Origin: an uncultured Candidatus Saccharibacteria bacterium
Lineage (GTDB): Bacteria; Patescibacteriota; WWE3; UBA101185; UBA10185
Assembly (NCBI GenBank): GCA_964559585.1
Contig: CAZLHE010000001.1
Location: 1-45,254, forward strand
Length of the DNA stretch: 45,254 nt
Direction: 5' to 3'
Below are positions 5,119-43,834 of the stretch, in pieces. A program made the position numbers and the translations under genes. A model generated the notes under the pieces. The model saw only the letters and a program-made list of their open reading frames with translations. It was not told where the DNA came from and searched no databases. The stretch's first letter is position 1. Every line of letters begins with the position of its first letter.

Positions 5119-6918
5119 CTAATTAACTATTTCAAAATCAAACAGCGTGTTTTTTATTGAAACATACCCTGGGGCCCGAAGATTGAACACATTTTTAAAA
5201 ACACCTCCGTCGATAGTTACGTTTCCGTTATTTGTTTTTAATGTTACTTTTGAAGTGTACCCACCATTACTTATGTCCACGCTTATGTCGGACACGCTTG
5301 TATATTTGTTGTCTATATACTTTTCCGCAACGTCCCCCATCTTGTCTGTGGAGTACGGATCTCCTCCCCAACAGCTTGTTGTCAGAGGAGTTATGTGACT
5401 CTTTTCACCACTTGAACCTTTTGTATAAACAACCCACGCATTCAATATGTCCGCCATTTCAGATGATTTCATCCATGGGTGTGGGTGTCCGCACGTGCTG
5501 TTATCGTTGTAGCTTTTTGTGTACCAAGCTTTATAAAACCAGGGGGAACCGGCTTTCTTTTCGTATGCATCTGACGGCCAATCTCCTTTTACATCCCACC
5601 CCACATTGTTAATATAACCGCCGGTTGTGGATGAGTACTGGGACGTCTTTGGGTTGTCCAGGATTACACCCTTTGTTGAATCGACAGCATCTTTCCATTT
5701 CGACGGCGGGTTGTCGGATTTGCTTTTCGAAAATACCTGGCATGCCTGTGTTGTACAGATTGGTTTGCCGGATCTATAAGCGTAGGTTCTTGCAGCAATT
5801 GCCTGGGCTTTAAGAGCATCTGAATCCCAATCACTTGGCATTTCTGCTATGCCGTAAAGGTATTTTTGAAAGTCTAGTGTTCCATAGCCCTGTACACTGA
5901 TTGTTTTTGGAAAACTGCTTGGTTTTGTTGTTCCAACTTTGTAATAAAATTTCAAAATATCTTTATATCCCTGTCCGTTGTCGGCTCTTCCTTTTGCTCC
6001 GTACTGGCTCATTCCATTGCCATGGGTATATGCGCCGTAGCTGAATGCAGCAAAGGCTGGTTTAAAAGGAGCGGAAGGAGTTTTAGAAGATGGTTGCTCG
6101 TAATCTCCGACCGATCCATTTTCATCACTGTATTTCAAAGCTAATATTTTGTTTTGAAGGTTCTCAAGTTCTTTCTCATACTGAGTTGTTTTTTGTGAAA
6201 GTTCTTTTGCTTGACTTTGGGCTGTGGTTTTTCTTGCGGCAATGTCGTTTGTTAGAGAAATTAGATTTTTCTGTGCGGTTTCAAGTTTAGCTTTTAATTC
6301 TTCCGCAGTTTTTTTATCCTGTTCAAAACCTTGGATTTCGGAGTTTAAGGCGCTAATTATTTTTAAGGTTTCTTCATTCGCGGCTTTGCTGAATGCATAA
6401 AGGTAACTTGAAAGTTGAAAACCGGTAAGATTTGCGTTTTCGTTTCTGGCAAAGAAAAGTTCCAGGTCATTTAGAATGTTTTTCTTTGAGTAGTTTCGAA
6501 GAAGGGAGTTTCGAATTGCAATTTTGTCTGAGAGTTTCTGATTTCTGTCTGAGAGGTTTTGGCTTATTTCGTCTAGATCTTTTTTTATTCCGTTGATATC
6601 GTTTTGAACACCATCCAATTGAGCTTGGGTGACTGTTAGCTGGGATGAGAGTTGGTTGATGTTGTTTAGGGTTGAATCGAGAAGTGCCCTTGCGTTGCTA
6701 AGTTTAGCTTGTGTTTCCCTTTCTTTTTTTTCATAGCACGCGGTCCGGTCACTTAAATCTGATATGTTTTTACAAGTATCTTCAGCATAAGTATGTAATG
6801 GTTTTTCCGTTAGAAAAGTTAGAAATAATAGGGCGGTTGCCGTTACGAGTAATATTTTATTTGAGATTTTTTTTTGAAACATGTTGGTTAACCAAATTCT
6901 TGGAAAATAGCCTAGCAT
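5119..6918 (-). CDS. SpoIID/LytB-domain peptidoglycan-remodelling protein with N-terminal anchor and long coiled coil
   Basis: 599-aa ORF with a hydrophobic N-terminus and a ~220-aa heptad-rich Q/L/N/K region. SpoIID hallmarks are present: GMSQYGAKGRADNGQGYKDILKFYY and ALKAQAIAARTYA. Confidence 0.85.
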   Translation of the reverse strand: MLGYFPRIWLTNMFQKKISNKILLVTATALLFLTFLTEKPLHTYAEDTCKNISDLSDRTACYEKKERETQAKLSNARALLDSTLNNINQLSSQLTVTQAQLDGVQNDINGIKKDLDEISQNLSDRNQKLSDKIAIRNSLLRNYSKKNILNDLELFFARNENANLTGFQLSSYLYAFSKAANEETLKIISALNSEIQGFEQDKKTAEELKAKLETAQKNLISLTNDIAARKTTAQSQAKELSQKTTQYEKELENLQNKILALKYSDENGSVGDYEQPSSKTPSAPFKPAFAAFSYGAYTHGNGMSQYGAKGRADNGQGYKDILKFYYKVGTTKPSSFPKTISVQGYGTLDFQKYLYGIAEMPSDWDSDALKAQAIAARTYAYRSGKPICTTQACQVFSKSKSDNPPSKWKDAVDSTKGVILDNPKTSQYSSTTGGYINNVGWDVKGDWPSDAYEKKAGSPWFYKAWYTKSYNDNSTCGHPHPWMKSSEMADILNAWVVYTKGSSGEKSHITPLTTSCWGGDPYSTDKMGDVAEKYIDNKYTSVSDISVDISNGGYTSKVTLKTNNGNVTIDGGVFKNVFNLRAPGYVSIKNTLFDFEIVN

Positions 6919-6926
6919 ATATGGAA

Positions 6927-6935
6927 ATTATATCA
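6927..6935 (-). promoter_or_regulatory. extended -10 (TGATATAAT) for the SpoIID gene, 8 nt from its ATG (leaderless-type)
   Basis: Plus-strand attatatca reverse-complements to TGATATAAT. The ATG is at 6918-6916. Confidence 0.5.
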
Positions 6936-6957
6936 GTTTAATTACATGTGGTTTTGA

Positions 6958-6966
6958 TGGTATATT
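6958..6966 (+). promoter_or_regulatory. extended -10 (TGGTATATT) exactly 6 nt upstream of the ATG at 6973 (leaderless-type)
   Basis: The sequence reads tggtatatt tctagt ATG. No Shine-Dalgarno is possible in the 6-nt gap. Confidence 0.5.
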
Positions 6967-6972
6967 TCTAGT

Positions 6973-7968
6973 ATGAGGAAGATATTTTTTGCCTTTTTCT
7001 TTTTTTTGTTCCTTTTCTTTTGTATTATTCCCTTAAGTGTTGGTAAAACCTTTGCCGCTTGCGATTTCGTAACTGGATATGGATGTACGTATTGCGTTGA
7101 TAACGCAGGTACTTGTATGGTTGATTCAAGCAGGTCTACTTGTCCCAGTGGAGAATACCCCGACGCAGGCTACTGTGTAGACCTCGGAGGAGGTTGTCCT
7201 ACCGCACCAGGTCCCTGTTCAGCAACTTCTACGTGCGGTCATAATACCGACCCTTGTAGCGGACCTGGTGCGGGCACTTGCTGTAGTGGTGAAAATCTTG
7301 TCTGTCAAGGCGGCAGCTGTGCTATTCAGACTCTGTGCGTCATTTCCGGTGCGGTGTGTACTGGAATAAGTACACAGGGGAACTGCTGCGATATAACACA
7401 AATATGCGACTACTATGGTGGTAGTACAACGTTAACATGTGGAACCCCGCAAACACTCCTGGGATATGCTTGTGATATGTTCAGCCATGTCTGTGTTCCG
7501 TGCTATGATACAAGCCAAACTGGATGCAACCCCCCTCAATATGATCCTGGTAGTTATAATACTTGTGATGCCGCCTGCAAAGGAACAATACCCACGAGGT
7601 TCAATTGCCTAAATGGTGATTGTACTCCGGCCCAAAATGGGTCGTATTCAGACTATCTGACCTGCAAGCAAAATTGTTCTCCTACATCGCCATATGACTA
7701 CAAGTACGACTACTCCTATAGTGGCTTGCGCTTCTCCAACTTGGAGGCGGTGCTAGCCCCCGTTGCAAAGATACTCTTTTACGCATCACTTGTAGTTGGA
7801 GTACTTTTAATTATCTACTCAGGATATGCATTAATGACTAGCGAAGGCAATCCTCAAAAAGTGCAGCAAAGTCAGGAACAGCTTACCGCCGCGATTCTTG
7901 GAATAATCTTCATTTTATTGTCAGCTGCAATTCTTCGTGTCATAATAAACTCTATACTGGTAGCATAG
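6973..7968 (+). CDS. secreted Cys-rich ectodomain fused to a C-terminal VirB2/TrbC-type (T4SS pilin-like) TM-loop-TM module
   Basis: 331 aa with signal peptide MRKIFFAFFFFLFLFFCIIPLSVGKTFA. About 30 Cys lie in ~230 aa. The C-terminus reads ILFYASLVVGVLLIIYSGYALMTSEGNPQKVQQSQEQLTAAILGIIFILLSAAIL, the same module as the next three ORFs. Confidence 0.6.
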   Translation: MRKIFFAFFFFLFLFFCIIPLSVGKTFAACDFVTGYGCTYCVDNAGTCMVDSSRSTCPSGEYPDAGYCVDLGGGCPTAPGPCSATSTCGHNTDPCSGPGAGTCCSGENLVCQGGSCAIQTLCVISGAVCTGISTQGNCCDITQICDYYGGSTTLTCGTPQTLLGYACDMFSHVCVPCYDTSQTGCNPPQYDPGSYNTCDAACKGTIPTRFNCLNGDCTPAQNGSYSDYLTCKQNCSPTSPYDYKYDYSYSGLRFSNLEAVLAPVAKILFYASLVVGVLLIIYSGYALMTSEGNPQKVQQSQEQLTAAILGIIFILLSAAILRVIINSILVA

Positions 7969-8000: not shown

Positions 8001-8324
8001 ATGTCTAAACTAGCATATTTGGTAGCAGCGGCTATTCCTTCTAACAATGAGCTTAATCCTCTACTAGGAATTACAAACCTGAGAACACTTTTCACGTTTG
8101 TAACAAACGCGGTAATTATTATTGGTTTGGGTATCGTCATAGTAATGTTGGCAATGGGATTTATTAGTTTCGTAACATCTCAAGGTGACAAGGTAAAGAC
8201 AGAACAGGCACAAAAATGGGTAACATACGCTGTTATAGGAGGAATTGGTTTATTTGCCGTTTACGCTATAAGAGCAGTCATCTACAGCATAGTGGGTGCC
8301 AACAATGATTTTACCAATTACTAA
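8001..8324 (+). CDS. VirB2/TrbC-type T4SS pilin-like protein (paralogue 2)
   Basis: 107 aa. The SD AAGGGGGT lies 8 nt upstream. Module: VIIIGLGIVIVMLAMGFISFVTSQGDKVKTEQAQKWVTYAVIGGIGLFAVYAI. Confidence 0.6.
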   Translation: MSKLAYLVAAAIPSNNELNPLLGITNLRTLFTFVTNAVIIIGLGIVIVMLAMGFISFVTSQGDKVKTEQAQKWVTYAVIGGIGLFAVYAIRAVIYSIVGANNDFTNY

Positions 8325-8399: not shown

Positions 8400-8711
8400 A
8401 TGTTATTAGCAGGTGCCTTTAATAAATATTATAATATAATGAATTTTGCACCACAGGGTGGTCAATACACGGAGGTGCAGTCTTTCGTATATTTAGTTGC
8501 TAACGCTTTTGTTGTGATTGCTGTAGGGATATCAGTCGCTATGTTAGCCTTTGGGTTTTTACAAATGGCAACAAGTAGCGGAGACCCAAAGAATGCAGAA
8601 AGGGCGCAGCGTGCAATACTTTGGGGAGCAGTCGGAATACTAGTCTCTCTATTCGCATACGCACTTAAACTTGTCTTGCTAAACGCGGCGGGAGTTAGTG
8701 ATTTATATTAA
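8400..8711 (+). CDS. VirB2/TrbC-type T4SS pilin-like protein (paralogue 3)
   Basis: 103 aa. Module: FVVIAVGISVAMLAFGFLQMATSSGDPKNAERAQRAILWGAVGILVSLFAYAL. The start codon is uncertain; an internal Met lies 13 codons in. Confidence 0.55.
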   Translation: MLLAGAFNKYYNIMNFAPQGGQYTEVQSFVYLVANAFVVIAVGISVAMLAFGFLQMATSSGDPKNAERAQRAILWGAVGILVSLFAYALKLVLLNAAGVSDLY

Positions 8712-9199
8712 TGAAAAAAAGTATAGGTAATTGGATAAAAATAGTTTTTTCTTCCGCGTCTTTCGTGTCGATGCTATTTTATATCACAAGATACGCTGTT
8801 GCTGCCCTAAGTGATCCCCCTACATTTTCTGAGCTTCAACCAATCCTAGTGAGAATTATAAATGTCTTTATTATGTGCGCGGGACTTGTTTTGGTTGTGA
8901 TGATTGCCTATGGTGTTTGGAAATCCTCTTTAGCTACTGGGGATCCAAGGGGGTTGGAGGGGGCAAAGAGTACATGGACCTACGCTTTATATGGTTTTTT
9001 TATCGTTGTTGGAGTTTTTGCTATTATTATGATTATAGAGGGTATTATTGGAATTTCTTCAGGTGCCTCCGGTGGGCTTGTCGGCAAGCTTATTGATGCC
9101 ATTAATGAGCTTTTGAATATTCAGCCCACCCCACCACCCTGCCCCGCTCCTTCTACATGTCCCCCACTCCCGTGTCCTCGTCTCCCAACATGCCCGTGA
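8711..9199 (+). CDS. VirB2/TrbC-type T4SS pilin-like protein (paralogue 4) with Cys-Pro-rich C-terminal tail
   Basis: 162 aa. Its ATG abuts the stop of the previous gene (TAATG). Module: CAGLVLVVMIAYGVWKSSLATGDPRGLEGAKSTWTYALYGFFIVVGVFAII. Tail: PTPPPCPAPSTCPPLPCPRLPTCP. Confidence 0.6.
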   Translation: MKKSIGNWIKIVFSSASFVSMLFYITRYAVAALSDPPTFSELQPILVRIINVFIMCAGLVLVVMIAYGVWKSSLATGDPRGLEGAKSTWTYALYGFFIVVGVFAIIMIIEGIIGISSGASGGLVGKLIDAINELLNIQPTPPPCPAPSTCPPLPCPRLPTCP

Positions 9200-9267: not shown

Positions 9268-12200
9268 CTAATTTTCTTCACATTGTATACTGGATGTTTC
9301 GTATCCCTCACACTCATCCATTGATGAGGGAACTCCCGTGCCAATTACAAAACTTTCCGATGTTATTATAACTTGGTCGTAACAGGTTTTTTCACTCCCG
9401 TCTATTTTTGGGATACTTACGGTGAAAAAGTTCTGAATCCGTGTGTTTTGAAGATCCGGATCCGCACTGTCAATTTCAATGTCGTATGTTATTTCTGTAT
9501 TGCCAGTGAAGTTTGTCAGCGGGAATGGGCCGTAACTACCTATTGGAATAATAACATCTTCATTTCCTTCTCTTTTAATACCCGCCACATTGTCTGTATA
9601 CATGACTCCGGCATCGGCAGGAATATTTGAGGCCTCCCCACCCGGTTTAATGGTAACTTTATATGTCACCTTTGTAGCACTTTGTGCGACAATCTCTTTT
9701 TCTAAAGTAAAAAATGAATTCGAGTTTTTATAGCATCTGACTGTTGAGGATGCTGTTCTATCAATAGGAGATACGCTAATTCCGAAAATGGCATAAAACA
9801 GACCTACAAATAATAAAAAAGGTGTTGCGACTGTAAGACAGCCCCACAGATAACATGTCGCCATTCTTTTTATATCTTTCTCTATCATTTTCGTAAGATC
9901 ACCGAAATCTCCTTTGAGCATGCCTCTAATCACCGCCTCCCCGTAACCGAGTACTTTCTTTAAAACAAAAGCAAGCGCCTTTTCTATTACGGGCATGATG
10001 ACAGCCAACCAGCCTGTTGCGGCTGCGGCACCGGCAATAAGTTTTGATATTAATTCTGATACAAGTGCGGAAACTTTGTTTGCCACAATGTCTTTCCAGT
10101 TTTGTATGGACGAGATGAGTTTTCCGGCCTTTGAGGCTATAAACCGTTTCTGAATCTCTTCGAGTTTCATGTGTACTTTCTCGAAGCTGCCTATGAAAGA
10201 TCGGTTTAGTTTATATCCCTGAGGAAGTTGCTTATTTTTCTTGAGGAGTTGTTTGAAAAGAGCAACTTGAAAATCCGGATCTAAAGCTTTGTCCCCGAGA
10301 TTTTCTGCATTCTTATGCATCCATTCTTTGTACCCTCCCATTTTTTTGAGAAAAGAAACATATTCCCCCTTATACTCACTGTTGTTTAGAACCTGCTCCA
10401 AACTAAGACCTCCGAAAAGTTTTTTGGCAAGCTCTTCACTTGTTGCTCTGTCTCTACCGCCAGTAAGTAGTTTTTTAAGCAGGGCTGTATCCTCAGCGTC
10501 ATCTAGGTCGAATAGTTTTCGATTGTTCAACTTCCCAATGCTCAAAAAGTCAAAATGTCCCCCTCCTTTTACAGTGAGATTTTTCAGCCCCCACGATTTA
10601 GTAAAATCGTTGTCAAAATTAACCTTTACATTAAAGCCGTATTTTTTAGCAATCTTTACATACTTATTGCCGGTAGGGTCGGTTTTCCTAAGATGATCAA
10701 AAACTGTTTTCATATCTTCGGATACTTTGAGTCCAAAGTAGTTTTGACTTTCTAGAAATTTTTCTACGTAATAAGATGGTAGAGCGGTTTTTATTCTTGG
10801 TTTGATTCTGTTATTCCATAGGTAGTTTTCAAGTAATTTTCCCTTATCCCAAGATTCTAAGAATTCTTCTGTTGCGTATCCTATTTTTTCTCTTCTTAGT
10901 CTGTATGCGACAGGAGCTAGCTTGCTGGCTTCTATTCTATATTTTTCATCTTGACGCAATGTTTCGTCTTGAAAAAGGGATCCTATTTGATCGTGTACCA
11001 GCTCTCCTTTTGAATTCTTTCTTTCCTTTGTACCTAGCATATCGGCTTCCATGTTCCTTCCTAGCTTTCTTTCGAGGCTGTCCTGGAACATGTCACCCTC
11101 GGTTAACTTAATCGATCTAAGTGAGGCGGCCCGGTTGAACGCTTCTATAGCAGCTTTTCCGGTAAGTCCTTTGGAGTTAATATTGGAAATTGTACTATCA
11201 AGGTCTCTAATATAACTTTTGTAATCCCCGGTGATTTTTTTGATGTTGTTGTATTGATAGTCCGAGATCTTACCATCGCTTTTTAGTTTTTCTATCGCTG
11301 CAAGATCTCTCTCAAGTGATGATTTTGCCCCAGTAATTCCATTTTTAAGATAATTAAACGAATCGCCCTTTTTCAGATAATCAAACGAATTGCCCTTCTC
11401 GTCCTTCGTTACTCCAACTAAAATCTGTTTTTTACTCCCTTTTATGTTATCATCGATAGATTTTTGAAGGTTACCAACATTTTTTAATATGTTATTTTTA
11501 ACATCGAATAATTCAACAGCACCGGAGTATTCTTCAAACCGCCTTTTTACTATGTCGCCTCCATTTTTAATACCATCGTTGTACTTTGAAGTTATCTCAA
11601 TGTTGACCGCTGATACAGCTTCTTTTAGGAAATCGTCGTGTCTGCTGTCTCTGAACTTAATATTTTCTCTGTTTTTCTCAAACTCCCCTATTTTATCCAC
11701 AGTTTTTTTGTACAAATCTTTATATGCTGGTAACCCAATCGACTCATCACCTTCTATATCTACCCCCTTTAAGTTCAACGGGTTGTCTGTTGTTCCGGAT
11801 GTTTTGAATCCGTAGGCAACTAGTGCCGCTACTGTTGATTCGGCGGATCCAATATCAAAAGGAATCTTTTCTTCTCCAAATCCCAAAGCCAGTTTCCACG
11901 TTCTTTCTCTTGTTTTATTTTCTATATCACTAAAGTCGCTATTAAAAACATCTTTCATGTCCACCCCTATTGTTTTTCTGACCCAGTCGTTAAGAGTTTT
12001 CGTAACTATTTTCCCAGAGTCTTTTTTCTTAGGGTCTTTAATATAATCAGCAGGATTTAAGGAGATTGAAATACCTTGTGCACCCGGAAGATCTTCCATC
12101 TCATAGTCGTCCAGCTCCGTTATGTTAATCTTAGTCGGCAAAATAGCAATTTTTAGGGAGTCCTTGAAATCATTGACAATACGGTCAACAACCCATTTCG

Positions 12201-12417
12201 GGGCCCCGAGCATCGTAGTTTCTTTAACCATTCTGGCCGTTTCGTCAATGTGATCCATCAAAACATCGCCGCTATATTCAATTGGTTGGATGAAATTTTT
12301 TGAGAGAGGGCGTCTTTGAATGGGTTGCCCCGCATAATAACCAGGATACAAAGGGTTAAATGAACCTTCGTCTTTTTTCTTTGGGGAGTAGCCCGGATAC
12401 AAAGGATTGTTCGCCAT
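9268..12417 (-). CDS. giant hypothetical protein: ~790-aa cytoplasmic region, TM hairpin, ~150-aa beta-rich C-terminal ectodomain
   Basis: 1049-aa uninterrupted ORF with no signal peptide. The N-terminus carries the repeat NPLYPGY twice. Hydrophobic segments are LIAGAAAATGWLAVIMPVI and CYLWGCLTVATPFLLFVGLFYAIFGISV. The C-terminus is beta-rich (TKVTYKVTIKPGG...) and ends in a Cys/Glu-rich tail. I saw no Walker A motif. Confidence 0.65.
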   Translation of the reverse strand: MANNPLYPGYSPKKKDEGSFNPLYPGYYAGQPIQRRPLSKNFIQPIEYSGDVLMDHIDETARMVKETTMLGAPKWVVDRIVNDFKDSLKIAILPTKINITELDDYEMEDLPGAQGISISLNPADYIKDPKKKDSGKIVTKTLNDWVRKTIGVDMKDVFNSDFSDIENKTRERTWKLALGFGEEKIPFDIGSAESTVAALVAYGFKTSGTTDNPLNLKGVDIEGDESIGLPAYKDLYKKTVDKIGEFEKNRENIKFRDSRHDDFLKEAVSAVNIEITSKYNDGIKNGGDIVKRRFEEYSGAVELFDVKNNILKNVGNLQKSIDDNIKGSKKQILVGVTKDEKGNSFDYLKKGDSFNYLKNGITGAKSSLERDLAAIEKLKSDGKISDYQYNNIKKITGDYKSYIRDLDSTISNINSKGLTGKAAIEAFNRAASLRSIKLTEGDMFQDSLERKLGRNMEADMLGTKERKNSKGELVHDQIGSLFQDETLRQDEKYRIEASKLAPVAYRLRREKIGYATEEFLESWDKGKLLENYLWNNRIKPRIKTALPSYYVEKFLESQNYFGLKVSEDMKTVFDHLRKTDPTGNKYVKIAKKYGFNVKVNFDNDFTKSWGLKNLTVKGGGHFDFLSIGKLNNRKLFDLDDAEDTALLKKLLTGGRDRATSEELAKKLFGGLSLEQVLNNSEYKGEYVSFLKKMGGYKEWMHKNAENLGDKALDPDFQVALFKQLLKKNKQLPQGYKLNRSFIGSFEKVHMKLEEIQKRFIASKAGKLISSIQNWKDIVANKVSALVSELISKLIAGAAAATGWLAVIMPVIEKALAFVLKKVLGYGEAVIRGMLKGDFGDLTKMIEKDIKRMATCYLWGCLTVATPFLLFVGLFYAIFGISVSPIDRTASSTVRCYKNSNSFFTLEKEIVAQSATKVTYKVTIKPGGEASNIPADAGVMYTDNVAGIKREGNEDVIIPIGSYGPFPLTNFTGNTEITYDIEIDSADPDLQNTRIQNFFTVSIPKIDGSEKTCYDQVIITSESFVIGTGVPSSMDECEGYETSSIQCEEN

Positions 12418-12449
12418 ATATTGTTATTCTATAATTAGCTAGTATTTAG

Positions 12450-12455
12450 TACAAT
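12450..12455 (+). promoter_or_regulatory. -10-like TACAAT exactly 6 nt upstream of the ATG at 12462 (leaderless-type)
   Basis: The sequence reads tacaat tagttc ATG, inside the 44-nt divergent gap between the 1049-aa and 465-aa genes. Confidence 0.4.
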
Positions 12456-12461
12456 TAGTTC

Positions 12462-13859
12462 ATGCCAAAAATGAAAAGAATATTTTTTGTTAAGCTACTA
12501 TTCATACCCCTACTTTTTACGTCGTTAGCCTTCTTGGGAAAAGGCAGGGTACTTGCTGCTGCAGATGATGTTGGTGTTTGTAAGCCCTACGAGGCCTCAT
12601 GGAAAATTAGTATCTGGAAATCGATCGACATGCAAAGTACAACGGAGAATCTTAGTAAGTCTGTTGCAAATACTATATTTGGAGCAGTTTATGGTAAAGA
12701 CACAAATGCTGTGGTGCTGTGCGAGAATCAAATATTCGGTTCAATGACAAGTATGAGTAACGTTGCACCTACTGGCGGCGCTGGAGGATTTGGCAATGCC
12801 GAAAAATGCGGGGCTAGCGCAACGGATGATCAGAAAGCTGTGTGCGACGAGATAATGAATACTACCAAAACAGCCTATATGTATAAAGGTAAACCAGCTG
12901 ATCTTTTGGCCGTTGACTCAAGCCTAATCGGAATTTCTAATAGGATTCAAAACACAGTACTTAGGGATCCAATTGCTGTAAACCTAGCTTATTACTGGAG
13001 AAGTCAGGTGGCAAAAATACCTTTTGTTGGGAAAACTTATGCGGCTGTAACCTTAGGTAAGAATGATATGGCAATTATCAATGCCGCGCTAAATGTTTGG
13101 AAGGCTTGCAGAGATATTTCCTTGGGGTTTATGGCTGTAATACTTATGTACACAGGACTTATGATAGTTATGAGAAAGAAAATCAACCCACAACTTGTAG
13201 TTACCGTTCAGTACGCAATACCAAAAATTATTATCGGTTTAATTCTTATTTTGTTTAGTTACCCTATCGGTGCTGCGATAACCGGTTTGAGCTGGGGACT
13301 ATTCAGAAGCTCAACTGAGATTGTTGTAGACGCTTTATATCCTCTTGCATCCTCCTCTGCTTTTGCGAATCAGGTAATGTTGGCACTTGTTATTGGGGCT
13401 TTGAAAATGGGTTTCTTTGCCGGCATAGGATTTTTATTAGTTATTCTTGTTGCGGTGGCTGCCATAATAATACTCATAATTGTTTACATCAAAGCACTTA
13501 TTATCTACATAAAGATGGTATTTTCAACCATTATTTCGCCTTTTGAATTTGCTTTGGGTACCGTACCGGGAAGTGAAGATCGAATTAAAGATTGGTTTTT
13601 GAGAATGGCGAAATACGGCCTTACAATTTTTGCAATGGGTTTGATTATTCCTGCAACACTGTCCGTAGCTTTTGAAGTTTTGATGTACTACAGTTTTTCC
13701 TGTGTAGGAAGTGTTTGTAATGTCGAAACAGCGGGTTTAGGCACTTTCATGATGGTAGCGGCTCCTTTAGTGATTGTAATTCTTGGATTTTCCCTGGCAA
13801 TGAAAATGGAAGATAGTGTTGACAAAATGATATTCGGCGGCAAGGGCAAAAAGAAATAA
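12462..13859 (+). CDS. polytopic membrane protein with VirB6/TrbL-like topology
   Basis: 465 aa. Signal peptide ...FTSLAFLGKGRVLAAADD, a ~190-aa exported domain, then 5-7 TM helices (e.g. ISLGFMAVILMYTGLMIVM, IIIGLILILFSYPIGAAITGL, FLLVILVAVAAIIILIIVYI). The assignment rests on topology and context only. Confidence 0.4.
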   Translation: MPKMKRIFFVKLLFIPLLFTSLAFLGKGRVLAAADDVGVCKPYEASWKISIWKSIDMQSTTENLSKSVANTIFGAVYGKDTNAVVLCENQIFGSMTSMSNVAPTGGAGGFGNAEKCGASATDDQKAVCDEIMNTTKTAYMYKGKPADLLAVDSSLIGISNRIQNTVLRDPIAVNLAYYWRSQVAKIPFVGKTYAAVTLGKNDMAIINAALNVWKACRDISLGFMAVILMYTGLMIVMRKKINPQLVVTVQYAIPKIIIGLILILFSYPIGAAITGLSWGLFRSSTEIVVDALYPLASSSAFANQVMLALVIGALKMGFFAGIGFLLVILVAVAAIIILIIVYIKALIIYIKMVFSTIISPFEFALGTVPGSEDRIKDWFLRMAKYGLTIFAMGLIIPATLSVAFEVLMYYSFSCVGSVCNVETAGLGTFMMVAAPLVIVILGFSLAMKMEDSVDKMIFGGKGKKK

Positions 13860-13863
13860 TTCA

Positions 13864-16800
13864 TCAGTTCCTACAAGCATCAAATATAAATTTGGTGTTT
13901 CTTTCGTCATTGTCAGCTGAGAACAGTGTGTTATCATCAGGTTTTCCCTGTAGGTAAAATCCCCAAGCGAATTTCAATAAAGCCTGTCGTGCATCTTCCC
14001 ATGTCCAGTCTTCACAATTAGAAGGACCTGCGACGCTTTTTAACATAGCCGCAGCCACAAAAGTGCTGTCTAAGAAATTACATCTGGCGGCAGTTTTGTG
14101 CCTTCCCACAGCCAGCTCGTCCAAAGTATCTTTAGTTACTTTCACCCCACCGTTGAACCATTGTAGTATTAGGTCGTATGGTCCCACCGCGGCTGAATTC
14201 ATTTCATCACACCCAGGAAAAGACCCATACCAAGGATAGCTTGCATCTTCTAAGTCTTTTTCTCCCTCTGTTGTGAAGTAGTAACCATATTTAGTTTGCT
14301 TACCAACCCCAGAAATGAGACTCATCAAAACAGATGCGGGTATGTTAATTCTTGACGCAGCGGCATTCAAAATGTTTACAAATGCAGGGGAGAATTTAAC
14401 ATCTTCTGGTATCGGTGTACTAGGACCAAACACTAACGAAAAAACATCATGTATACAGGCATCTGAAGGATTAAACCTACATGCTGGTTTGACAGGGAAT
14501 CTTGTGAAGTATTCTTCTAAATCCACTACCTCAGGTATCGGTGGGTCATTTACCATGCACGCCCAATTACCCGTTTGGAACGATCCCATTTCCTCTGCAC
14601 TTTGAAGATTGGAAACAAATGCTCCGGTGTTGGTGTTATCTTCTATACTGCAGTGAAGATTTACTTTATTGTATACAGGATCTTCTGTCAGCAGAGGGGC
14701 GGAGAACATGCCTCTGGTAATTGCTCCATTTTGAGTGTCTCCACCAATACCTAGTGTGCCTTTCCTTTTTGCAATGTTATTGCTACCTACGGTCCTAATT
14801 GAAGAGTCCCCGCTTTCAAAGGCAGCGGGTCCATATGTAAACCTTGCTTCAAAAGGTGATTGGAAACTTTTTCTCAATTCATTATTTGCGATTGCTAAGG
14901 AATCCGCATTTTGCGGAGGTACTATACTTCCGTTTGGATTGTCGGGCAATGGACCTGTTTTTGTAACAAGCTCCGAGTCTTTTTCTAGTGTGCCTCCACA
15001 CGTATACGGTCCTGCCATTGACACTTTACAAGCTGGTTCATCCGGGAAGGTACGTGAAATGACATTACTATCATATTCTCCTTTGGCTGGGGGATCGGGG
15101 TAGTCATCATCGTCGCAATCAATATCAAATGTGTGTCCATATGCGGCTTTAAGGCAGCTCGTATCCGGAGTGTCTCCATCCAAACAGGTTATTTGTTTTT
15201 GAGCGCAAACAAGCCTATTATCTACTGAACATTCTATATTATCTATATTATCGGTATTACAATCATCCTGCCAATAATTTGTATTGCCATCCTCGTCGGT
15301 GTACGCGTGACACGTACAGTGTACTTCTATTACTTTACAATCGTCAACTCGGCAGGTTCTGGAAATTCCATCGGTAGACTCGGTCTTATCGGTATTACAT
15401 GTTTCCTTTTCTATATCTATGGGGTATGTTGCAACTGGCATTATATTCCACTCATAGCAAGCGACGTTTCCCCCTTTTCCTCCCCATGCTTTTACATCGA
15501 GATTACTCGGTGTTGGTAAAGGAAATTCGGTTGTGAAATTTTCTTCTGAAAGCGTAAATTCCGTTTCTAAATCGTTTCTTGTTTCAACATTATCGCCCGT
15601 TAACGGTAGCGTCGTTTGGGCGTTTTTTCTATCAAAGAACGATTTACTCTCAGAAGAACCAATACTTCCCACGATATTGTCCCACCAAGTTTGCCCGAAA
15701 GTAGGTATGTTAGCAGGGTTTTCTAAATCAGTTTTTCCTTTACCATATAGTATTGAGAGAAAAGAGTCATACGTATCCTGTGAAGTTCCTCCCTGTGTTT
15801 CTAACAATTTTATTCTCTTTATGGCTGGATCAGTGAGGTAAATTGCAGAGGTTGCGGTTCTGGTCCCATTACGTAAGCTATCATCGCCACCTTGATCCAC
15901 TAAGGGGTGGTGGTCCAGGTTACCCTTGAATAGTATGTTGCTTATTATTTTCTGGTCGTTTTCGGGTTCAATCGTAATTTGTTCGGGAAAGTTATTTACT
16001 TTTGAAAACTCCCCTATCTTCATCGTTTTTGAGCCCAGGGTAGGGACAATAATACCGGATAAAATTTTAAGCTCATAAAGCCCATCTTTTGTGGGGGGAG
16101 ATAAAAGGCTAGTAAGTGCATTCGAGGAATCTTTGGTTACCTTGTTGCTTGATATAGCTGCAGCCCCCCCCATTGTGTTATTCGGTCTCTTTCCTCCGCT
16201 AGTATACATCGCAAAAGTACCTCCTCTTACCGGTTGGCTTGCGGCTTCTTCTCCAGCTGTGAATGGTTTTTCATTTACTCCGCTGCCTGCCGCAAAAGAA
16301 TCGTTATTACTTTGAAATGTAAAACCATATTTGGCGGCCACATTGTTTTTTCCAAAGTAATATACTAGTTCAGGACTCCAATAAGAAGAATCCAATACGT
16401 AGCCACTCATATTGGTCTCCCAAGGAGGTTGAATTTGACCTACCCTTATTGCTTCTTCAGCGTCGTTCTCCGGATTAATTTTGCAGACCCGCGCACCCTC
16501 TATGCCCATAGGTATATTTGTAAGGTATTCGTCGCGAAATGTATTTGGGCTTGCCAAAAGTTTGGCTGGTCCACTGGTAGTCTGTACGTTTAGATAGCTG
16601 TTTTGTCTGCTGATTACTTCATTGCATTTTTGAAGCTTTGAACACGCAATATACTTATCTTTAGCGATTTCATTGTCTTTTCTTAGAAATACACTTCCAA
16701 TGCAGTTTGAGAATTGTAGACTTAAAAACTTTGCTGGATCAGTTGGGTCTTGAATAAACTCCTCAATATCTTGTCTGGCAGGAAATTCTTTATAAAACCT

Positions 16801-17907
16801 AATGCTGGGTTGTGGTGGGATATTCGGCAATTTGTTTTGAATCACAAAGTCCGAATTTGTATATAAATTACTGGTGTAATCCGCGATTCGACCACTCCTT
16901 GTTGGGTCAGTGGCCTCGTCCACGTTCTGGGCTCCAGGTGTCATACAAAATTCCTTATCGTCGGGGTATTTTGTAACGCAATCTCTCGACCAAAAGGCCC
17001 CCTCCAAAAACTTATTTAGACCCAATATACTTAAATAAACTCCTCCTCCTGCATTCCCATATATAAACCTCGGGTCAGCATTTTCTAACTTCAGATCAAC
17101 ATTCATTGATACAAGCGTTGAGTAATTACTTATCGGAAAAAGGCCGTTTTTTGCTTGTATAGACTGTTCTGGTTTAAAGCTGAATTGTGCGGTCAGGTGG
17201 TTTATATACGTGTCCTTGTTTATGATGGGGTCACACCATACTACATAGTTGTCGAGATCACCTTCTGCAAGCATCTTTTCACAGTCTTTTTCCATATCAT
17301 CGGTTCCCATCTGGTTTGCCAGCAGTTGATTTGAGGTTGATTCTTCGTTGGGTAATACGGACATCACATTTTTAGGAGCAACATAAGCCTGTATGGGTCT
17401 GCAGTCTACTTCCTGAATTACATATGTAAGGTCAAGATAGGATGGTATCTCCTGCATGCCTGCAAGGGTTTTTCCGCAAGAAAAAACAAGGTATCGTTTT
17501 TTAGACATAAGATTTCTTTGTGTTGCTGTGCCGCTTGCTGGTGGTTCTTCGTAGTTGTCCAGTTTCCTTGCCCACAAGTAAAACATCCCGTCCTTGTTTG
17601 TTGAAGTCGAGGAAAAAGGACGTATTAAATCACCATTTAGTTTGCACGAGGGTGACTGATTATTACATTCATAAACGTAAACCGATACCCCCGGGACTCC
17701 TTTTGGCGCTTCGTAAGTTGTTATTCCATTTTTAGTAATGGAGGTTGGCCTAGCGGATTTTACAACTCCACAAATAGAAGTTAGAGATTTATCCGGAGAC
17801 TTGGGGCATTTTGTACCGGGGATGTACTCAGCGTGGGTTTCTTTTATAAAACCCGATAGAACTAAACATATTGAGTACACAAAAAGTACCTTAAAAAAGC
17901 GTTTCAT
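13864..17907 (-). CDS. giant secreted surface protein (1347 aa) with prealbumin-like N-terminal domain and Cys/Asp-rich central module
   Basis: Signal peptide MKRFFKVLFVYSICLVLSGFIKETHA. A CarboxypepD_reg-like stretch reads GVPGVSVYVYE...STNKDGMFYLWARK. The central segment CRVDDCKVIEVHCTCHAYTDEDGNTNYWQDDCNTDNIDNIECS...DIDCDDDDYPDPP is Cys/Asp-rich. The C-terminal ~250 aa have an SLT-like motif order, but no catalytic Glu could be located. Confidence 0.65.
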   Translation of the reverse strand: MKRFFKVLFVYSICLVLSGFIKETHAEYIPGTKCPKSPDKSLTSICGVVKSARPTSITKNGITTYEAPKGVPGVSVYVYECNNQSPSCKLNGDLIRPFSSTSTNKDGMFYLWARKLDNYEEPPASGTATQRNLMSKKRYLVFSCGKTLAGMQEIPSYLDLTYVIQEVDCRPIQAYVAPKNVMSVLPNEESTSNQLLANQMGTDDMEKDCEKMLAEGDLDNYVVWCDPIINKDTYINHLTAQFSFKPEQSIQAKNGLFPISNYSTLVSMNVDLKLENADPRFIYGNAGGGVYLSILGLNKFLEGAFWSRDCVTKYPDDKEFCMTPGAQNVDEATDPTRSGRIADYTSNLYTNSDFVIQNKLPNIPPQPSIRFYKEFPARQDIEEFIQDPTDPAKFLSLQFSNCIGSVFLRKDNEIAKDKYIACSKLQKCNEVISRQNSYLNVQTTSGPAKLLASPNTFRDEYLTNIPMGIEGARVCKINPENDAEEAIRVGQIQPPWETNMSGYVLDSSYWSPELVYYFGKNNVAAKYGFTFQSNNDSFAAGSGVNEKPFTAGEEAASQPVRGGTFAMYTSGGKRPNNTMGGAAAISSNKVTKDSSNALTSLLSPPTKDGLYELKILSGIIVPTLGSKTMKIGEFSKVNNFPEQITIEPENDQKIISNILFKGNLDHHPLVDQGGDDSLRNGTRTATSAIYLTDPAIKRIKLLETQGGTSQDTYDSFLSILYGKGKTDLENPANIPTFGQTWWDNIVGSIGSSESKSFFDRKNAQTTLPLTGDNVETRNDLETEFTLSEENFTTEFPLPTPSNLDVKAWGGKGGNVACYEWNIMPVATYPIDIEKETCNTDKTESTDGISRTCRVDDCKVIEVHCTCHAYTDEDGNTNYWQDDCNTDNIDNIECSVDNRLVCAQKQITCLDGDTPDTSCLKAAYGHTFDIDCDDDDYPDPPAKGEYDSNVISRTFPDEPACKVSMAGPYTCGGTLEKDSELVTKTGPLPDNPNGSIVPPQNADSLAIANNELRKSFQSPFEARFTYGPAAFESGDSSIRTVGSNNIAKRKGTLGIGGDTQNGAITRGMFSAPLLTEDPVYNKVNLHCSIEDNTNTGAFVSNLQSAEEMGSFQTGNWACMVNDPPIPEVVDLEEYFTRFPVKPACRFNPSDACIHDVFSLVFGPSTPIPEDVKFSPAFVNILNAAASRINIPASVLMSLISGVGKQTKYGYYFTTEGEKDLEDASYPWYGSFPGCDEMNSAAVGPYDLILQWFNGGVKVTKDTLDELAVGRHKTAARCNFLDSTFVAAAMLKSVAGPSNCEDWTWEDARQALLKFAWGFYLQGKPDDNTLFSADNDERNTKFIFDACRN

Positions 17908-20146: not shown

Positions 20147-20234
20147 GGAGAAGTCGCATAGTGGCCGAGTGCAGCGGTTTACTAAACCGCCATACCGCAA
20201 GGTATCGTGGGTTCGAATCCCACCTTCTCCGCCA
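20147..20234 (+). tRNA. Ser-type (class II) tRNA with anticodon ACU (A34), CCA encoded
   Basis: The acceptor GGAGAAG/CTTCTCC pairs, with G73 and CCA. The D stem is GCA/TGC. The anticodon stem GCGGT/ACCGC closes the loop TTACTAA, placing anticodon ACT at 20181-20183. The variable arm is ATACC-GCAA-GGTAT and the T arm is GTGGG-TTCGAAT-CCCAC. Confidence 0.75.
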
Positions 20235-25173: not shown

Positions 25174-25410
25174 ATGACATACGAACAAAAACTAACAAAA
25201 ATAGGAAATTCTGTAGGAGTAATAATCCCGTCTGAGGTGCTGAAAAGACTGAAGCTAACCTCCGGAAGCAAGGTCTTTTTAGAGCAAGTGCAGGACCAAA
25301 TACTTCTCAAAAGAACAGAGGATGTATACGTTTCCCCCGAGTTTTTAAGAGTGGCTGAAAAGGTTTCTGATAAGTATAAAAAAGCCTTTAGAGAACTAGC
25401 ACTAAAATGA
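25174..25410 (+). CDS. AbrB/MazE/SpoVT-fold antitoxin (Phd-equivalent partner of Doc)
   Basis: 78 aa. KLTKIGNSVGVIIPSEVLKRLKL is a SpoVT-AbrB looped-hinge motif. It overlaps the Doc gene by 4 nt (ATGA). Confidence 0.8.
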   Translation: MTYEQKLTKIGNSVGVIIPSEVLKRLKLTSGSKVFLEQVQDQILLKRTEDVYVSPEFLRVAEKVSDKYKKAFRELALK

Positions 25411-25805
25411 GATACCTGTCTCTTGAAGAAGTTCTTATCCTCCACGACCACCAAATTGAAAAATATGGAGGGGAGTATGGCATATTAAACACCTCACTGT
25501 TAGAGTCAGCAGTTTTTAGGCCACAGATGACTCTAAGTGGTAAAGAAGTTTTCCCAAGTGTATTTGAAAAAGCAGCTGTTTTAGCAGTTTCGTTGATTCA
25601 GTTTCACCCCTTTTTAGATGGAAACAAGAGAACGGGGCTTTATTCAGCGCTGGTATTTTTAAGACTTAATGATGTCAAAGTGAGTATTAGAGATTCCGCT
25701 TTGGTTAAACTCGGGATCAGAATTGCTACGAATAAGATCCCCCTGAAAGAAGTGGTTTCTATATTTGAAAGAGGAAGCAAGTCAAAAACGAAGAGGAAAA
25801 ACTAG
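25407..25805 (+). CDS. doc: Doc (death-on-curing) family Fic-fold toxin
   Basis: 132 aa. The motif HPFLDGNKRTG matches the Doc-type Fic motif HxFx(D/N)(A/G)NKR. Confidence 0.85.
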   Translation: MRYLSLEEVLILHDHQIEKYGGEYGILNTSLLESAVFRPQMTLSGKEVFPSVFEKAAVLAVSLIQFHPFLDGNKRTGLYSALVFLRLNDVKVSIRDSALVKLGIRIATNKIPLKEVVSIFERGSKSKTKRKN

Positions 25806-40415: not shown

Positions 40416-40718
40416 ATGAATGTAGTACCTTCTAAATTCCAACCTTTATTTCCAAGCTCAAATATACAAAACCTAGATACCCAAAGGGATAAAGGCTATA
40501 TCATTCAAACTCTCTTAAAAACCTCAACATTGGATGGCTGGAAATGGATGCTAGAAACATACTCAAATGAAGATATTTCTGCAGTTCTCAGAACTTCTAG
40601 ATTGCTAACACCAAAAGATGCATATTTTTGGGGCCTTTTTTTACATGTCCCTCAAAGTGAAATATTATGTTTGAACAAAGACTTACAGAAAACGCCAAAA
40701 ACATCTTGGGTATATTAA
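40416..40718 (+). CDS. small protein upstream of the AbiEii-like nucleotidyltransferase (putative cognate antitoxin/partner)
   Basis: 100 aa. It overlaps the NTase gene by 52 nt. I recognised no motif, so the role is inferred from position only. Confidence 0.4.
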   Translation: MNVVPSKFQPLFPSSNIQNLDTQRDKGYIIQTLLKTSTLDGWKWMLETYSNEDISAVLRTSRLLTPKDAYFWGLFLHVPQSEILCLNKDLQKTPKTSWVY

Positions 40719-41308: not shown

Positions 41309-41426
41309 TTGGCTCCGCACCGTGAACAACGTTAGAACCATTTTTGAACATAAAGATGAGCATGTCTATATTCCAGACTTAAGACAAACAGCTTAATTTA
41401 CCCTACCATCTAACTCACTATTGTTT
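41309..41426. repeat. cassette-boundary repeat R1, copy a (~118 nt)
   Basis: TTGGCTCCGCACCGTGAACAACGTTAGAACCATTTTTGA... aligns along its whole length with 44852-44971. It starts directly after the AbiEii stop codon. Confidence 0.7.
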
Positions 41427-41764: not shown

Positions 41765-41864
41765 ATGATATCTCCTTTGTTTAGTGTTCAGATGGGGTTT
41801 GTTACAGATTGTTATCAGTGTGATTATAGCTTAAAAAGGTTGTTTAGTCAACCTATAGCTTTTA

Positions 41865-41895
41865 TTGGCCCCCCATAGTGGACCTTATGCGAACC
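41865..41895. repeat. cassette-boundary repeat R2, copy a (31-nt core)
   Basis: TTGGCCCCCCATAGTGGACCTTATGCGAACC matches 43835-43865 at 30 of 31 positions and the first 31 nt of R1 at 20 of 31. Confidence 0.75.
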
Positions 41896-41983
41896 ATAGG
41901 GGAGTGTGCGTTAGGAGAAATAAAAATTCGTAAGGTCAGAGATATAGCTGAACTTTTCTGATGGGGATGTTAAAAAACTTCAA

Positions 41984-43795: not shown

Positions 43796-43834
43796 AAACT
43801 AATGATAATACTATAAAGGAATACAAACTACCAA

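What the first reader, a model, noticed from the sequence alone, without database searches (positions are those of the whole stretch)
6973..7968. Pilin module fused to a ~230-aa ectodomain with about 30 cysteines
The first paralogue differs from the other three. After a clear signal peptide comes a Gly/Thr/Pro-rich region with roughly 30 Cys (e.g. CCSGENLVCQGGSC, GNCCDITQIC, FNCLNGDCTPAQNGSYSDYLTCKQNC). A Tyr-rich linker (YDYKYDYSYSG) follows, and only then the pilin TM-loop-TM module. A knottin- or EGF-like disulfide-rich head carried on a pilin anchor would be a built-in adhesin or tip subunit. I do not know of VirB2-family pilins described with such fusions. The segment is also visibly more GC-rich than its surroundings.
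Basis: seen in the sequence. Interest (0 to 1): 0.6.

Follow-up and report, generated by a model that had tools for sequence, protein, structure and literature searches.

The report
Pilin with swappable cysteine-rich head
An ultrasmall, probably host-dependent bacterium (candidate division WWE3, Patescibacteria) encodes a secretion-system pilin whose membrane hairpin is conserved, while its 30-cysteine outer head is replaced wholesale between close relatives, which makes the head a good but untested candidate for the part that recognises the host or target surface.

Summary
ORF 6973-7968 (331 aa) has a signal peptide, a ~210-aa head with 30 Cys, a Tyr-rich linker and a C-terminal helical hairpin that matches PF18895 (T4SS_pilin). 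The hairpin is homologous to the three short pilins downstream (HHalign 97%).

The fusion is not an assembly artefact. The same architecture heads the same conserved locus in about 25 species-level WWE3 genomes, and also in Woesebacteria.

Main new result: the head is a hypervariable cassette on a conserved anchor.
- Against a relative with 89-93% identical flanks, window 7005-7704 has no detectable similarity. Identity resumes exactly at the YDYSYSG linker.
- Among 21 syntenic loci, all 210 anchor pairs align but only 10 head pairs do.
- Eight species of the same genus carry eight heads; only two share one 63-aa module.
- Within this head type the Cys scaffold is kept (29/30) while the loops diverge (33-49% identity).
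- The same head also occurs on a different anchor subfamily and on a 1077-aa non-pilin protein in a similar locus.

The GC excess is explained by amino-acid composition alone. The head's fold is unrecognised: it has two C-C-CC-C-C (knottin-like) frameworks, but no fold-search match was significant.

Function (host or target recognition, displayed on a pilus or on the membrane) is inferred. No paper found describes headed VirB2-like pilins. I class it as a new variant of a known kind.

The parts
6919..6972 (+). Upstream region shared with the close relative: divergent promoter region between the SpoIID-like gene (5119-6918, minus strand) and the head-pilin gene
   Evidence: The stretch 6915-7004 is 78% identical to L005, with a well-conserved block just before the ATG. 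Promoter function was not tested.
6973..7968 (+). Head-pilin gene, 331 aa including stop
   Evidence: ORF listing; PF18895; orthologue P0002 at 54% identity over 91% of the length in an independent assembly.
6973..7056 (+). Sec-type signal peptide (aa 1-28, ...VGKTFA|A)
   Evidence: N-terminal hydrophobic stretch followed by an AxA-like site; similar signal peptides in P0079 and P0080. The cleavage site is inferred.
7057..7677 (+). Cys-rich head (aa 29-235), 30 Cys; the hypervariable cassette
   Evidence: Cys count. No nucleotide similarity to L005 across 7005-7704 although the flanks are 89-93% identical. 29/30 Cys conserved against P0002 while non-Cys identity is 33-49%. Head homologues occur on other anchors.
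7234..7320 (+). C-C-CC-C-C framework 1 (aa 88-116, CGHNTDPCSGPGAGTCCSGENLVCQGGSC)
   Evidence: Pattern scan; conserved in P0002 and P0072-74. The knotted connectivity was not shown.
7336..7440 (+). C-C-CC-C-C framework 2 (aa 122-156)
   Evidence: Pattern scan; conserved in homologues.
7459..7680 (+). Two tandem beta-hairpin + helix units (aa ~163-203 and ~209-236), the best-modelled part of the head
   Evidence: AF2 pLDDT 68-87 with E-E-H, E-E-H elements; the Y/F-x-C...C...Y...C-x3-C motif is conserved in P0002 and P0072-75.
7678..7725 (+). Tyr-rich linker (aa 236-251, SPTSPYDYKYDYSYSG); the 3' recombination boundary lies within it
   Evidence: Similarity to L005 resumes at TACGACTACTCC, about nt 7706; Y249 and G251 are invariant in the anchor alignment.
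7726..7965 (+). VirB2-like pilin module (aa 252-331): pre-TM helix, TM1 (~261-288), polar loop TSEGNPQKVQQSQEQ (289-303), TM2 (~304-329)
   Evidence: PF18895 at 7741-7944; AF2 helical hairpin; HHalign 97% probability against the short-pilin family; 87% identity and dN/dS 0.14 against P0002.
8001..8324 (+). Short pilin paralogue 2 (107 aa)
   Evidence: PF18895 at 23.6 bits; orthologues at 38-100% identity in about 25 syntenic loci.
8400..8711 (+). Short pilin paralogue 3 (103 aa)
   Evidence: PF18895 at 30.3 bits, NF045849 at 33.9 bits; conserved in syntenic loci.
8711..9199 (+). Pilin paralogue 4 (162 aa) with a Cys-Pro tail
   Evidence: PF18895 at 17.2 bits; conserved in syntenic loci; the tail is absent in the L005 orthologue.
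9268..17907 (.). Conserved partners of the locus: 1049-aa protein (minus strand, 2 TM near the C-terminus), 465-aa polytopic membrane protein (plus strand, ~7 hydrophobic segments, VirB6-like candidate), 1347-aa exported giant (minus strand)
   Evidence: Synteny in about 25 loci; hydropathy; no Pfam, NCBIfam or PHROG hits.
5119..6918 (-). SpoIID/LytB-domain protein with coiled coil, divergently placed; a candidate cell-wall remodelling partner
   Evidence: PF08486 and TIGR02669; the same position in WWE3 and Woesebacteria loci.

Best explanation
Gene 6973-7968 encodes the first, 'headed' member of a conserved four-gene array of VirB2-like (PF18895) pilins on the chromosome of a WWE3-type Patescibacteria bacterium. 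The proposed mechanism runs as follows. The Sec signal peptide exports the ~210-aa head. The head is oxidised into a compact domain with about 15 disulfides: two knottin-like C-C-CC-C-C units plus two beta-hairpin/helix units. It stays tethered through a Tyr-rich linker to a pilin hairpin, N-out/C-out with a small polar loop on the cytoplasmic (later lumenal) side. The hairpin is the conserved, assembly-competent part shared with the three short pilins. The head is the variable, outward-facing part. Because a 22-kDa head cannot sit on every subunit of a tightly packed conjugative-type pilus, the protein most likely acts as a minor or terminal subunit, or stays at the membrane base. There it presents a species-specific binding surface for a host or target cell-envelope ligand. 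Heads are exchanged as cassettes by recombination between the conserved gene start and signal-peptide region and the conserved linker and anchor. The same head type is reused on other anchor subfamilies and on a giant protein of the same kind of locus. What is shown: gene reality, architecture, homology of the anchor to the short pilins, locus conservation, cassette replacement, Cys-scaffold conservation with loop divergence, and the presence of a DsbA-like oxidoreductase. What is inferred: disulfide formation, surface display, pilus incorporation, and the ligand-binding or host-specificity role.
For: Architecture. The anchor is homologous to the short pilins over 76 columns, HHalign probability 97%, E 1e-10. 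All 70 full-length homologues have Cys-rich heads of 6-54 Cys with a C-terminal PF18895 module. The locus SpoIID<- ->head-pilin, 3 short pilins, <-1049 aa, 465 aa->, <-1347 aa is conserved in about 25 species-level genomes labelled WWE3 or Patescibacteria, with the head-pilin always first. The same layout occurs in Woesebacteria. Cassette replacement: flanks 89-93% identical to L005, no similarity across 7005-7704, identity resuming at YDYSYSG. Of 210 species pairs, 210 anchors align but only 10 heads do. Eight same-genus species carry eight heads, only two of which share one module. Against P0002, 29/30 Cys are kept, non-Cys identity is 33-49% and dS is saturated, while the neighbouring pilins are 83-91% identical. 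The head module also sits on a second anchor subfamily (P0072-75, P0079-80) and on giant P0071 next to a pilin and a p465-like gene. A DsbA-like Thioredoxin_4 protein is present in the genome and in 17/21 relatives. Background: VirB2-like pilin arrays are widespread in Patescibacteria and essential in Southlakia epibionticum, and no dedicated adhesin has been detected (PMC12102498; PMC10633639; PMC12857230).
Against: No evidence here or in the literature shows that PF18895 proteins form a pilus in any Patescibacteria; PMC12857230 speaks only of a 'potential to elaborate conjugative pili'. No VirB4 or other T4SS motor lies in the locus or the 45-kb window. PF03135 finds nothing in the genome, and the only candidates are two DUF87/TraG-type ATPases on other contigs. 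The head has no recognisable fold or binding-domain homology, and AF2 confidence is low for its N-terminal half. Hypervariability could equally reflect evasion (of phages, predators or host defences) and not adhesion. Expression and read support could not be checked.
Confidence: 0.55

Rival explanations
1. Membrane-anchored variable surface protein. The hairpin serves only as a membrane anchor and never enters a filament. The Cys-rich head forms part of a variable cell-surface coat whose diversity serves evasion (of phage, predator or host defences) or self/non-self discrimination. The logic resembles Giardia VSPs, which have a Cys-rich variable ectodomain on a conserved TM tail.
For: No pilus has been demonstrated for PF18895 proteins, and no T4SS ATPase lies in the locus. 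The extreme head turnover with a conserved anchor fits a variable coat protein as well as an adhesin.
Against: The anchor is homologous over its whole length to the short pilins and is strongly conserved, with dN/dS 0.14 and invariant Y-x-G, P, G-Y, S-x-G-x-P and L-L-S-x-x-I-x-R positions. That is more constraint than a mere anchor needs. There is one gene per genome in a fixed operon position and no multigene family for switching.
Confidence: 0.25
2. Pro-protein. The head is released by cleavage near the conserved Y-x-G junction, giving a normal short pilin plus a soluble, secreted disulfide-rich factor. The factor could be an effector, toxin or signalling peptide with knottin-like modules acting on the host.
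For: VirB2/TraA-family pilins are classically made with long leaders that are removed (established knowledge). An invariant Tyr-x-Gly lies just upstream of the region where the short pilins begin to align. C-C-CC-C-C frameworks are typical of secreted toxins and inhibitors (non-significant knottin toxin hits).
Against: No dedicated peptidase (TraF-like) was seen in the locus. The same head is also fused to a different anchor subfamily and to a 1077-aa protein, which suggests a tethered module and not a freely secreted product. There is no similarity to any known toxin or effector family.
Confidence: 0.12
3. Artefact: a missed stop or frameshift, or a chimeric assembly, joining a secreted Cys-rich protein gene to a separate pilin gene.
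For: The window is a metagenome-type assembly, and reads could not be inspected.
Against: The same uninterrupted architecture is present in an orthologue from another run (P0002), in 70/70 homologues, in over 40 species-representative genomes and in 8 same-genus genomes. The ORF has no internal stop, and the linker and anchor frame is conserved.
Confidence: 0.02
4. Target of a diversity-generating retroelement (DGRs are common in CPR genomes), with the head varied by mutagenic retrohoming.
For: Hypervariable exported domain in a CPR genome.
Against: No template-repeat/variable-repeat pair involves the gene, and there are no repeats of at least 40 nt touching 6973-7968. No reverse transcriptase was found among the window ORFs scanned. 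The variation is wholesale replacement including length changes (117-507 aa heads), not adenine-specific substitution in a fixed C-terminal scaffold.
Confidence: 0.01

Closest known systems
VirB2-like pilin arrays of the Patescibacteria T4SS (Pfam PF18895 T4SS_pilin; Wang et al. 2023, PMC10633639; Quinonero-Coronel et al. 2025, PMC12102498)
   Same: Same hairpin family. Tandem array of divergent paralogues on the chromosome of an ultrasmall bacterium. No relaxase or conjugation context in the window.
   Different: The described arrays consist of small pilins, and the papers do not mention large Cys-rich N-terminal domains; they state that no adhesin was detected. Here the first array member carries a ~210-aa, 30-Cys head that is replaced between close relatives. 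The array is also not next to a VirB4 gene.
Canonical conjugative pilins VirB2/TrbC/TraA (PF04956 and relatives) with VirB5-type tip proteins
   Same: Helical hairpin with a short loop and N-out/C-out topology. Division of labour between a structural subunit and a separate contact protein at the tip (established knowledge; PMC12857230).
   Different: No PF04956 match at E <= 0.1 and no match to solved pilins by sequence. Here the putative contact domain is covalently fused to a pilin hairpin and is not a separate VirB5-like protein. The organism is a monoderm.
Type IV pilus (type 4 filament) minor or tip pilins with grafted adhesin domains, and phage receptor-binding proteins with swappable distal domains
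   Same: A conserved assembly module joined to a variable, outward-facing recognition module. Recombination breakpoints lie at the conserved junction. Modules are shared between different carrier proteins.
   Different: Unrelated protein families and assembly machineries. This is an analogy of design only; no homology was found or claimed.
Knottin / inhibitor cystine-knot (ICK) mini-proteins
   Same: Two C-x6-C-x7-8-CC-x5-6-C-x4-10-C frameworks. The only small-domain fold hits are ICK toxins, with TM-score relative to target of about 0.6 over 37-40 columns.
   Different: The hits are not significant (E 4.8-7). Disulfide connectivity is unknown. Here the units are embedded in a larger 30-Cys domain tethered to a membrane protein in a bacterium.
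Large cysteine-rich extracellular proteins of CPR bacteria (Peribacteria; Anantharaman et al. 2016, PMC4736985)
   Same: Exported, very Cys-rich, strain-variable proteins proposed to mediate attachment in CPR genomes.
   Different: Those are large (about 1,655 aa on average), have about 7% Cys, and were not reported as pilin fusions. Here the protein has 331 aa, about 14% Cys in the head, and a PF18895 hairpin.

Membership tests
PF18895 T4SS_pilin (VirB2-like pilins of Patescibacteria and monoderm conjugation-type systems) | Profile match at or above the curated gathering score | tested here: met
   Borderline: 26.3 bits against a cut-off of 26.6 by hmmscan on the protein; 30.4 bits, over the cut-off, in the six-frame genome search; precomputed PF18895.6 label on the identical protein.
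PF18895 T4SS_pilin (VirB2-like pilins of Patescibacteria and monoderm conjugation-type systems) | Two hydrophobic helices joined by a short polar loop ([ST]-S-x-G-[DN]-P type) | tested here: met
   Hydropathy; AF2 helices 257-289 and 294-330; loop MTSEGNP with S, G and P invariant in 23 sequences.
PF18895 T4SS_pilin (VirB2-like pilins of Patescibacteria and monoderm conjugation-type systems) | Homology to the stand-alone short pilins of the same array | tested here: met
   HHalign A3 against A5: probability 97%, E 1.1e-10, 76 aligned columns.
PF18895 T4SS_pilin (VirB2-like pilins of Patescibacteria and monoderm conjugation-type systems) | Genomic association with T4SS core genes (VirB4, VirB6, VirB3) | tested here: inconclusive
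   No VirB4 in the window, and PF03135 is absent from the 85%-complete genome. Two TM-anchored DUF87/TrwB/TraG-type ATPases lie on other contigs. A conserved 7-segment polytopic neighbour, p465, is only a VirB6-like candidate.
PF18895 T4SS_pilin (VirB2-like pilins of Patescibacteria and monoderm conjugation-type systems) | Polymerises into an extracellular pilus | not testable with these tools
   Not shown for any Patescibacteria PF18895 protein in the literature read.
Canonical TrbC/VirB2 (PF04956) | Profile match | tested here: not met
   No PF04956 hit at E <= 0.1; a profile search of PDB sequences finds no pilin.
Knottin / ICK fold | Six-Cys C-C-CC-C-C framework | tested here: met
   Two occurrences, aa 88-116 and 122-156, conserved in homologues.
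Knottin / ICK fold | Knotted I-IV, II-V, III-VI disulfide connectivity and fold similarity | tested here: inconclusive
   AF2 pLDDT is 40-66 over these modules. Foldseek hits to ICK toxins have E 4.8-7 and are not significant.
EGF-like domains | Pfam EGF-family profile match | tested here: not met
   No EGF-type family at E <= 0.1; only non-significant giant-virus 'EGF-like' rows at E > 2.
DGR variable protein | Template repeat / variable repeat pair and a nearby reverse transcriptase | tested here: not met
   No direct repeat of at least 40 nt involves the gene; no RT among the ORFs scanned.

The most novel reading that the evidence does not exclude
The headed pilin is the host-specificity determinant of the enigmatic VirB2-like apparatus of Patescibacteria. 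It is displayed at the tip or the base of a T4SS-type filament. Its disulfide-knotted head is drawn from a pool of receptor-binding cassettes that are exchanged by recombination. The exchange runs between species, between anchor subfamilies (WWE3 and Woesebacteria) and between different proteins of the locus (pilins and giant wall-active proteins), much as phages exchange receptor-binding domains. If so, head type would predict the host of uncultured epibionts.
Probability: 0.3. Interest if true: 0.8.

Novelty: new variant of a known kind. Interest (0 to 1): 0.6.

Why it matters
The T4SS-like system and its pilin array are essential in the only genetically tractable Patescibacteria, yet its function is described as completely unknown, and a census of more than 3,000 genomes found no adhesin for it (PMC10633639, PMC11665869, PMC12102498). 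A pilin that carries its own hypervariable, disulfide-stabilised head in a fixed, conserved operon position is a concrete candidate for the missing contact or specificity element. It gives a testable handle: swap or delete heads, pull down ligands, and correlate head type with host in metagenomes. It also adds a compact, possibly very stable, bacterial disulfide-rich scaffold with natural loop diversity.

Tried and rejected
1. Foreign origin of the GC-rich segment: rejected. GC3 equals that of the other genes, and the GC expected from amino-acid composition matches the observed value.

2. DGR-driven variation: rejected, because no template repeat exists.

3. Frameshift or chimera: rejected by conservation across independent assemblies.

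4. Recognisable fold for the head: none found.
- Pfam, NCBIfam and PHROGs gave nothing.
- Two AF2 models had pLDDT 58 and 64.6.
- Three Foldseek searches gave no hit at E <= 0.001.

5. Word-index search with the head alone returned only the query. A profile of seven heads returned only six proteins, so the MSA stayed shallow.

6. Sequence relatives of the anchor among solved structures: none. Only spurious transporter TM matches at E about 0.2.

7. VirB4 by PF03135 in the genome: none. VKOR gave only a 17-bit fragment at a contig edge. DsbA-like Thioredoxin_4 was found.

8. The Pam pilus system (PMC13278184) was considered and rejected as unrelated: Ig-like donor-strand pilins.

Full report
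OBSERVATION.

- It has 31 Cys, one in the signal peptide and 30 between residues 30 and 235. That even number is compatible with 15 disulfides.
- The quoted motifs and the Tyr-rich linker YDYKYDYSYSG are present.
- The mean Cys content of the 467 ORFs of at least 150 aa in this genome is 0.96%. This protein is the richest of them, and P(>=30 Cys in 216 residues) is about 2e-25.
- The C-terminal 80 residues form two hydrophobic helices joined by the polar loop TSEGNPQKVQQSQEQ.
- That module matches Pfam PF18895 (T4SS_pilin) at 26.3 bits against a 26.6 cut-off on the protein, and at 30.4 bits in the six-frame genome search.
- The three following genes (8001-8324, 8400-8711, 8711-9199) hit the same family. 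These four are the only PF18895 matches in the 626-kb, 84-contig, 85%-complete genome.

The GC remark is correct but trivial. GC2 is 0.62 (Cys, Gly, Pro, Ala and Thr codons), GC3 is 0.38 as in all other genes, and the GC expected from composition with the local codon usage is 0.484 against 0.485 observed.

IS THE FUSION REAL?

Comparative evidence settles the point.
- All 70 proteins of 200-572 aa retrieved with the whole protein combine a Cys-rich N-terminal part (6-54 Cys) with the C-terminal hairpin.
- One of them, P0002, comes from an independent assembly. It is 54% identical over 91% of the length and keeps 29 of the 30 head Cys.
- A scan of species-representative genomes with the anchor profile gave 62 loci. 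Most are labelled candidate division WWE3, Levyibacteriota or Patescibacteria group. In most of them the anchor is the end of a 200-620 aa ORF.

WHAT THE ANCHOR IS.

A profile of 23 anchors aligns with a profile of the orthologues of the short pilin at 8400-8711 over 76 columns (HHalign probability 97%, E 1e-10). The headed protein therefore carries a complete pilin module, not just a similar-looking TM pair.
- It is under strong constraint: 87% identity and dN/dS 0.14 against P0002.
- Invariant positions include Y-x-G before the first helix, G-Y, S-x-G-x-P in the loop and L-L-S-x-x-I-x-R in the second helix.
- It does not match canonical TrbC/VirB2 (PF04956) or any solved pilin by sequence.

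LOCUS.

The gene order below is conserved in about 25 species-level genomes, with the headed pilin always first in the array:

L25 - 606 aa - DUF5657 - 186 aa - (514 aa) - SpoIID-like <- | -> headed pilin - three short pilins | <- 1049 aa | 465 aa -> | <- 1347 aa - SmpB

- A Woesebacteria locus (protein A2715_03925) has the same plan with eight pilins.
- The 465-aa neighbour has about seven hydrophobic segments. Its relatives sit beside pilin genes in distant lineages, so it is a VirB6-like candidate.
- No VirB4 lies in the window, and PF03135 finds nothing in the genome.
- Two paralogous TM-anchored DUF87/TrwB/TraG-type ATPases lie on other contigs.

THE HEAD IS A CASSETTE.

Against L005/L007 (a 'Patescibacteria group bacterium' from a marine glass biofilm), the flanks are 89-93% identical at the nucleotide level. 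Window 7005-7704 has no detectable similarity.
- The conserved sequence ends just after the start codon, within the signal peptide.
- It resumes at TACGACTACTCC, which encodes YDYSYSG.
- That relative's protein has 230 aa and an unrelated 18-Cys head.

Wider comparisons give the same picture.
- Among 21 syntenic loci, all 210 anchor pairs align (median 52% identity). Only 10 head pairs show any similarity, and 6 of those cover at least half the head.
- Eight species of the same genus carry eight Cys-rich heads. These are unrelated apart from one shared 63-aa module.
- Against P0002, the head keeps its Cys scaffold while non-Cys identity is 33-49%. The neighbouring pilins are 83-91% identical. 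Synonymous sites in the head are saturated while the neighbours have dS 0.16-0.8. That indicates an old allele brought in by recombination and not rapid in-situ divergence.
- No DGR-type repeat exists.

THE SAME HEAD ON OTHER CARRIERS.

A full HMMER pass of the head alone over 1.84 billion representatives found only eight other proteins.
- Four of them, plus two more found with a head profile, carry the head with a similar signal peptide on a different PF18895 anchor subfamily (TAIGCIP...GIGGGIAFLLIIYAGF.IMTS.GNPERL). In each of the two whose loci were fetched (P0080 and P0074), the gene is first in a pilin array.
- One, P0071 (1077 aa), carries the head at the N-terminus of a non-pilin giant protein. 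Its C-terminus weakly resembles that of the window's 1347-aa protein (E 6e-4). It lies directly between a pilin gene and a p465-like gene.

The head is thus a portable module used within this kind of locus.

HEAD STRUCTURE.

The head contains two C-C-CC-C-C frameworks (aa 88-116 and 122-156). These are followed by two units with the motif aromatic-x-C...C...Y...C-x3-C, which AF2 models as beta-hairpin plus helix with pLDDT 68-87.
- The N-terminal half is modelled poorly (pLDDT 33-66).
- Foldseek against the PDB and BFVD gave no hit at E <= 0.001. The only small-domain matches were ICK spider toxins at E 5-7.
- Pfam, NCBIfam and PHROGs have no family for the head.
- A DsbA-like Thioredoxin_4 protein is encoded in the genome and in 17 of 21 relatives, so extracytoplasmic oxidation is plausible.

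INTERPRETATION.

The best-supported reading (0.55) is a minor or terminal pilin, or a membrane-base subunit, of the Patescibacteria VirB2-like apparatus. It displays a species-specific, disulfide-stabilised binding module.
- In conjugative pili the hairpin loop faces the lumen and the termini face outward (established knowledge). An N-terminal head would therefore point outward.
- A 22-kDa head on every subunit is sterically implausible, hence a minor role (inference).

Rivals:
- A non-filament variable surface protein (0.25).
- A pro-protein whose head is released (0.12).
- Artefact (0.02).
- DGR target (0.01).

None of the functional steps (oxidation, display, incorporation, binding) is shown.

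LITERATURE AND NOVELTY.

VirB2-like arrays of 2-11 divergent pilins are described in Patescibacteria and are essential in Southlakia epibionticum. Their function is unknown, and 'no adhesins' were detected (PMC12102498, PMC10633639, PMC12857230, PMC11665869).
- None of these texts mentions Cys-rich domains on pilins.
- Cys-rich strain-variable extracellular proteins were noted in Peribacteria, but not as pilin fusions (PMC4736985).
- The recently described Pam pili are unrelated.
- Earlier AI notes of this scan report similar headed pilins in many other genomes. They agree with this reading but are not independent evidence.

I class the finding as a new variant of a known kind, with interest 0.6.

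Noticed in passing
window 8711-9199: The fourth pilin ends in an 18-aa Cys-Pro tail (PPCPAPSTCPPLPCPRLPTCP). The orthologues in L005 and L006 lack it and stop at ...PTPAPL*. This is a strain-specific C-terminal extension with five Cys.
   Followed up: partly
L072 202-3435 (protein P0071): A 1077-aa exported protein carries the same head type at its N-terminus, has no pilin module, and has a C-terminus weakly like that of the window's 1347-aa giant. It lies between a pilin gene and a p465-like polytopic membrane protein.
   Followed up: partly
own genome, contig C5 4199-6691 and contig C11 470-2875: Two paralogous 830- and 801-aa ATPases with an N-terminal TM segment and DUF87/TrwB/TraG-D_C matches. 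They are candidates for the VirB4/T4CP-like motor, but neither is linked to the pilin locus or to other T4SS genes.
   Followed up: partly
window 12462-13859: The 465-aa protein has about 7 hydrophobic segments and a ~200-aa outward loop. It is conserved next to the pilin array, and its relatives lie beside pilin genes in Levyibacteriota: a VirB6-like candidate with no family hit.
   Followed up: partly
own genome, contig C61 from 1744 (+): A second exported Cys-rich protein (348 aa, 24 Cys) with a weak thrombospondin type-1 (TSP_1) match.
   Followed up: no
window 41309-41399 / 44852-44942 and 41864-41912 / 43834-43882: Two pairs of intergenic direct repeats (86% and 84% identical) flanking the GH3 and NUDIX genes.
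   Followed up: no
window 20147-20234: ARAGORN calls a tRNA-Ser with anticodon ACT directly after tRNA-Ser(GCT).
   Followed up: no
window 40667-41308 and 25407-25805: An AbiEii-type toxin domain protein and a Fic/DOC protein in an otherwise housekeeping region. L072 also carries an AbiEii gene.
   Followed up: no
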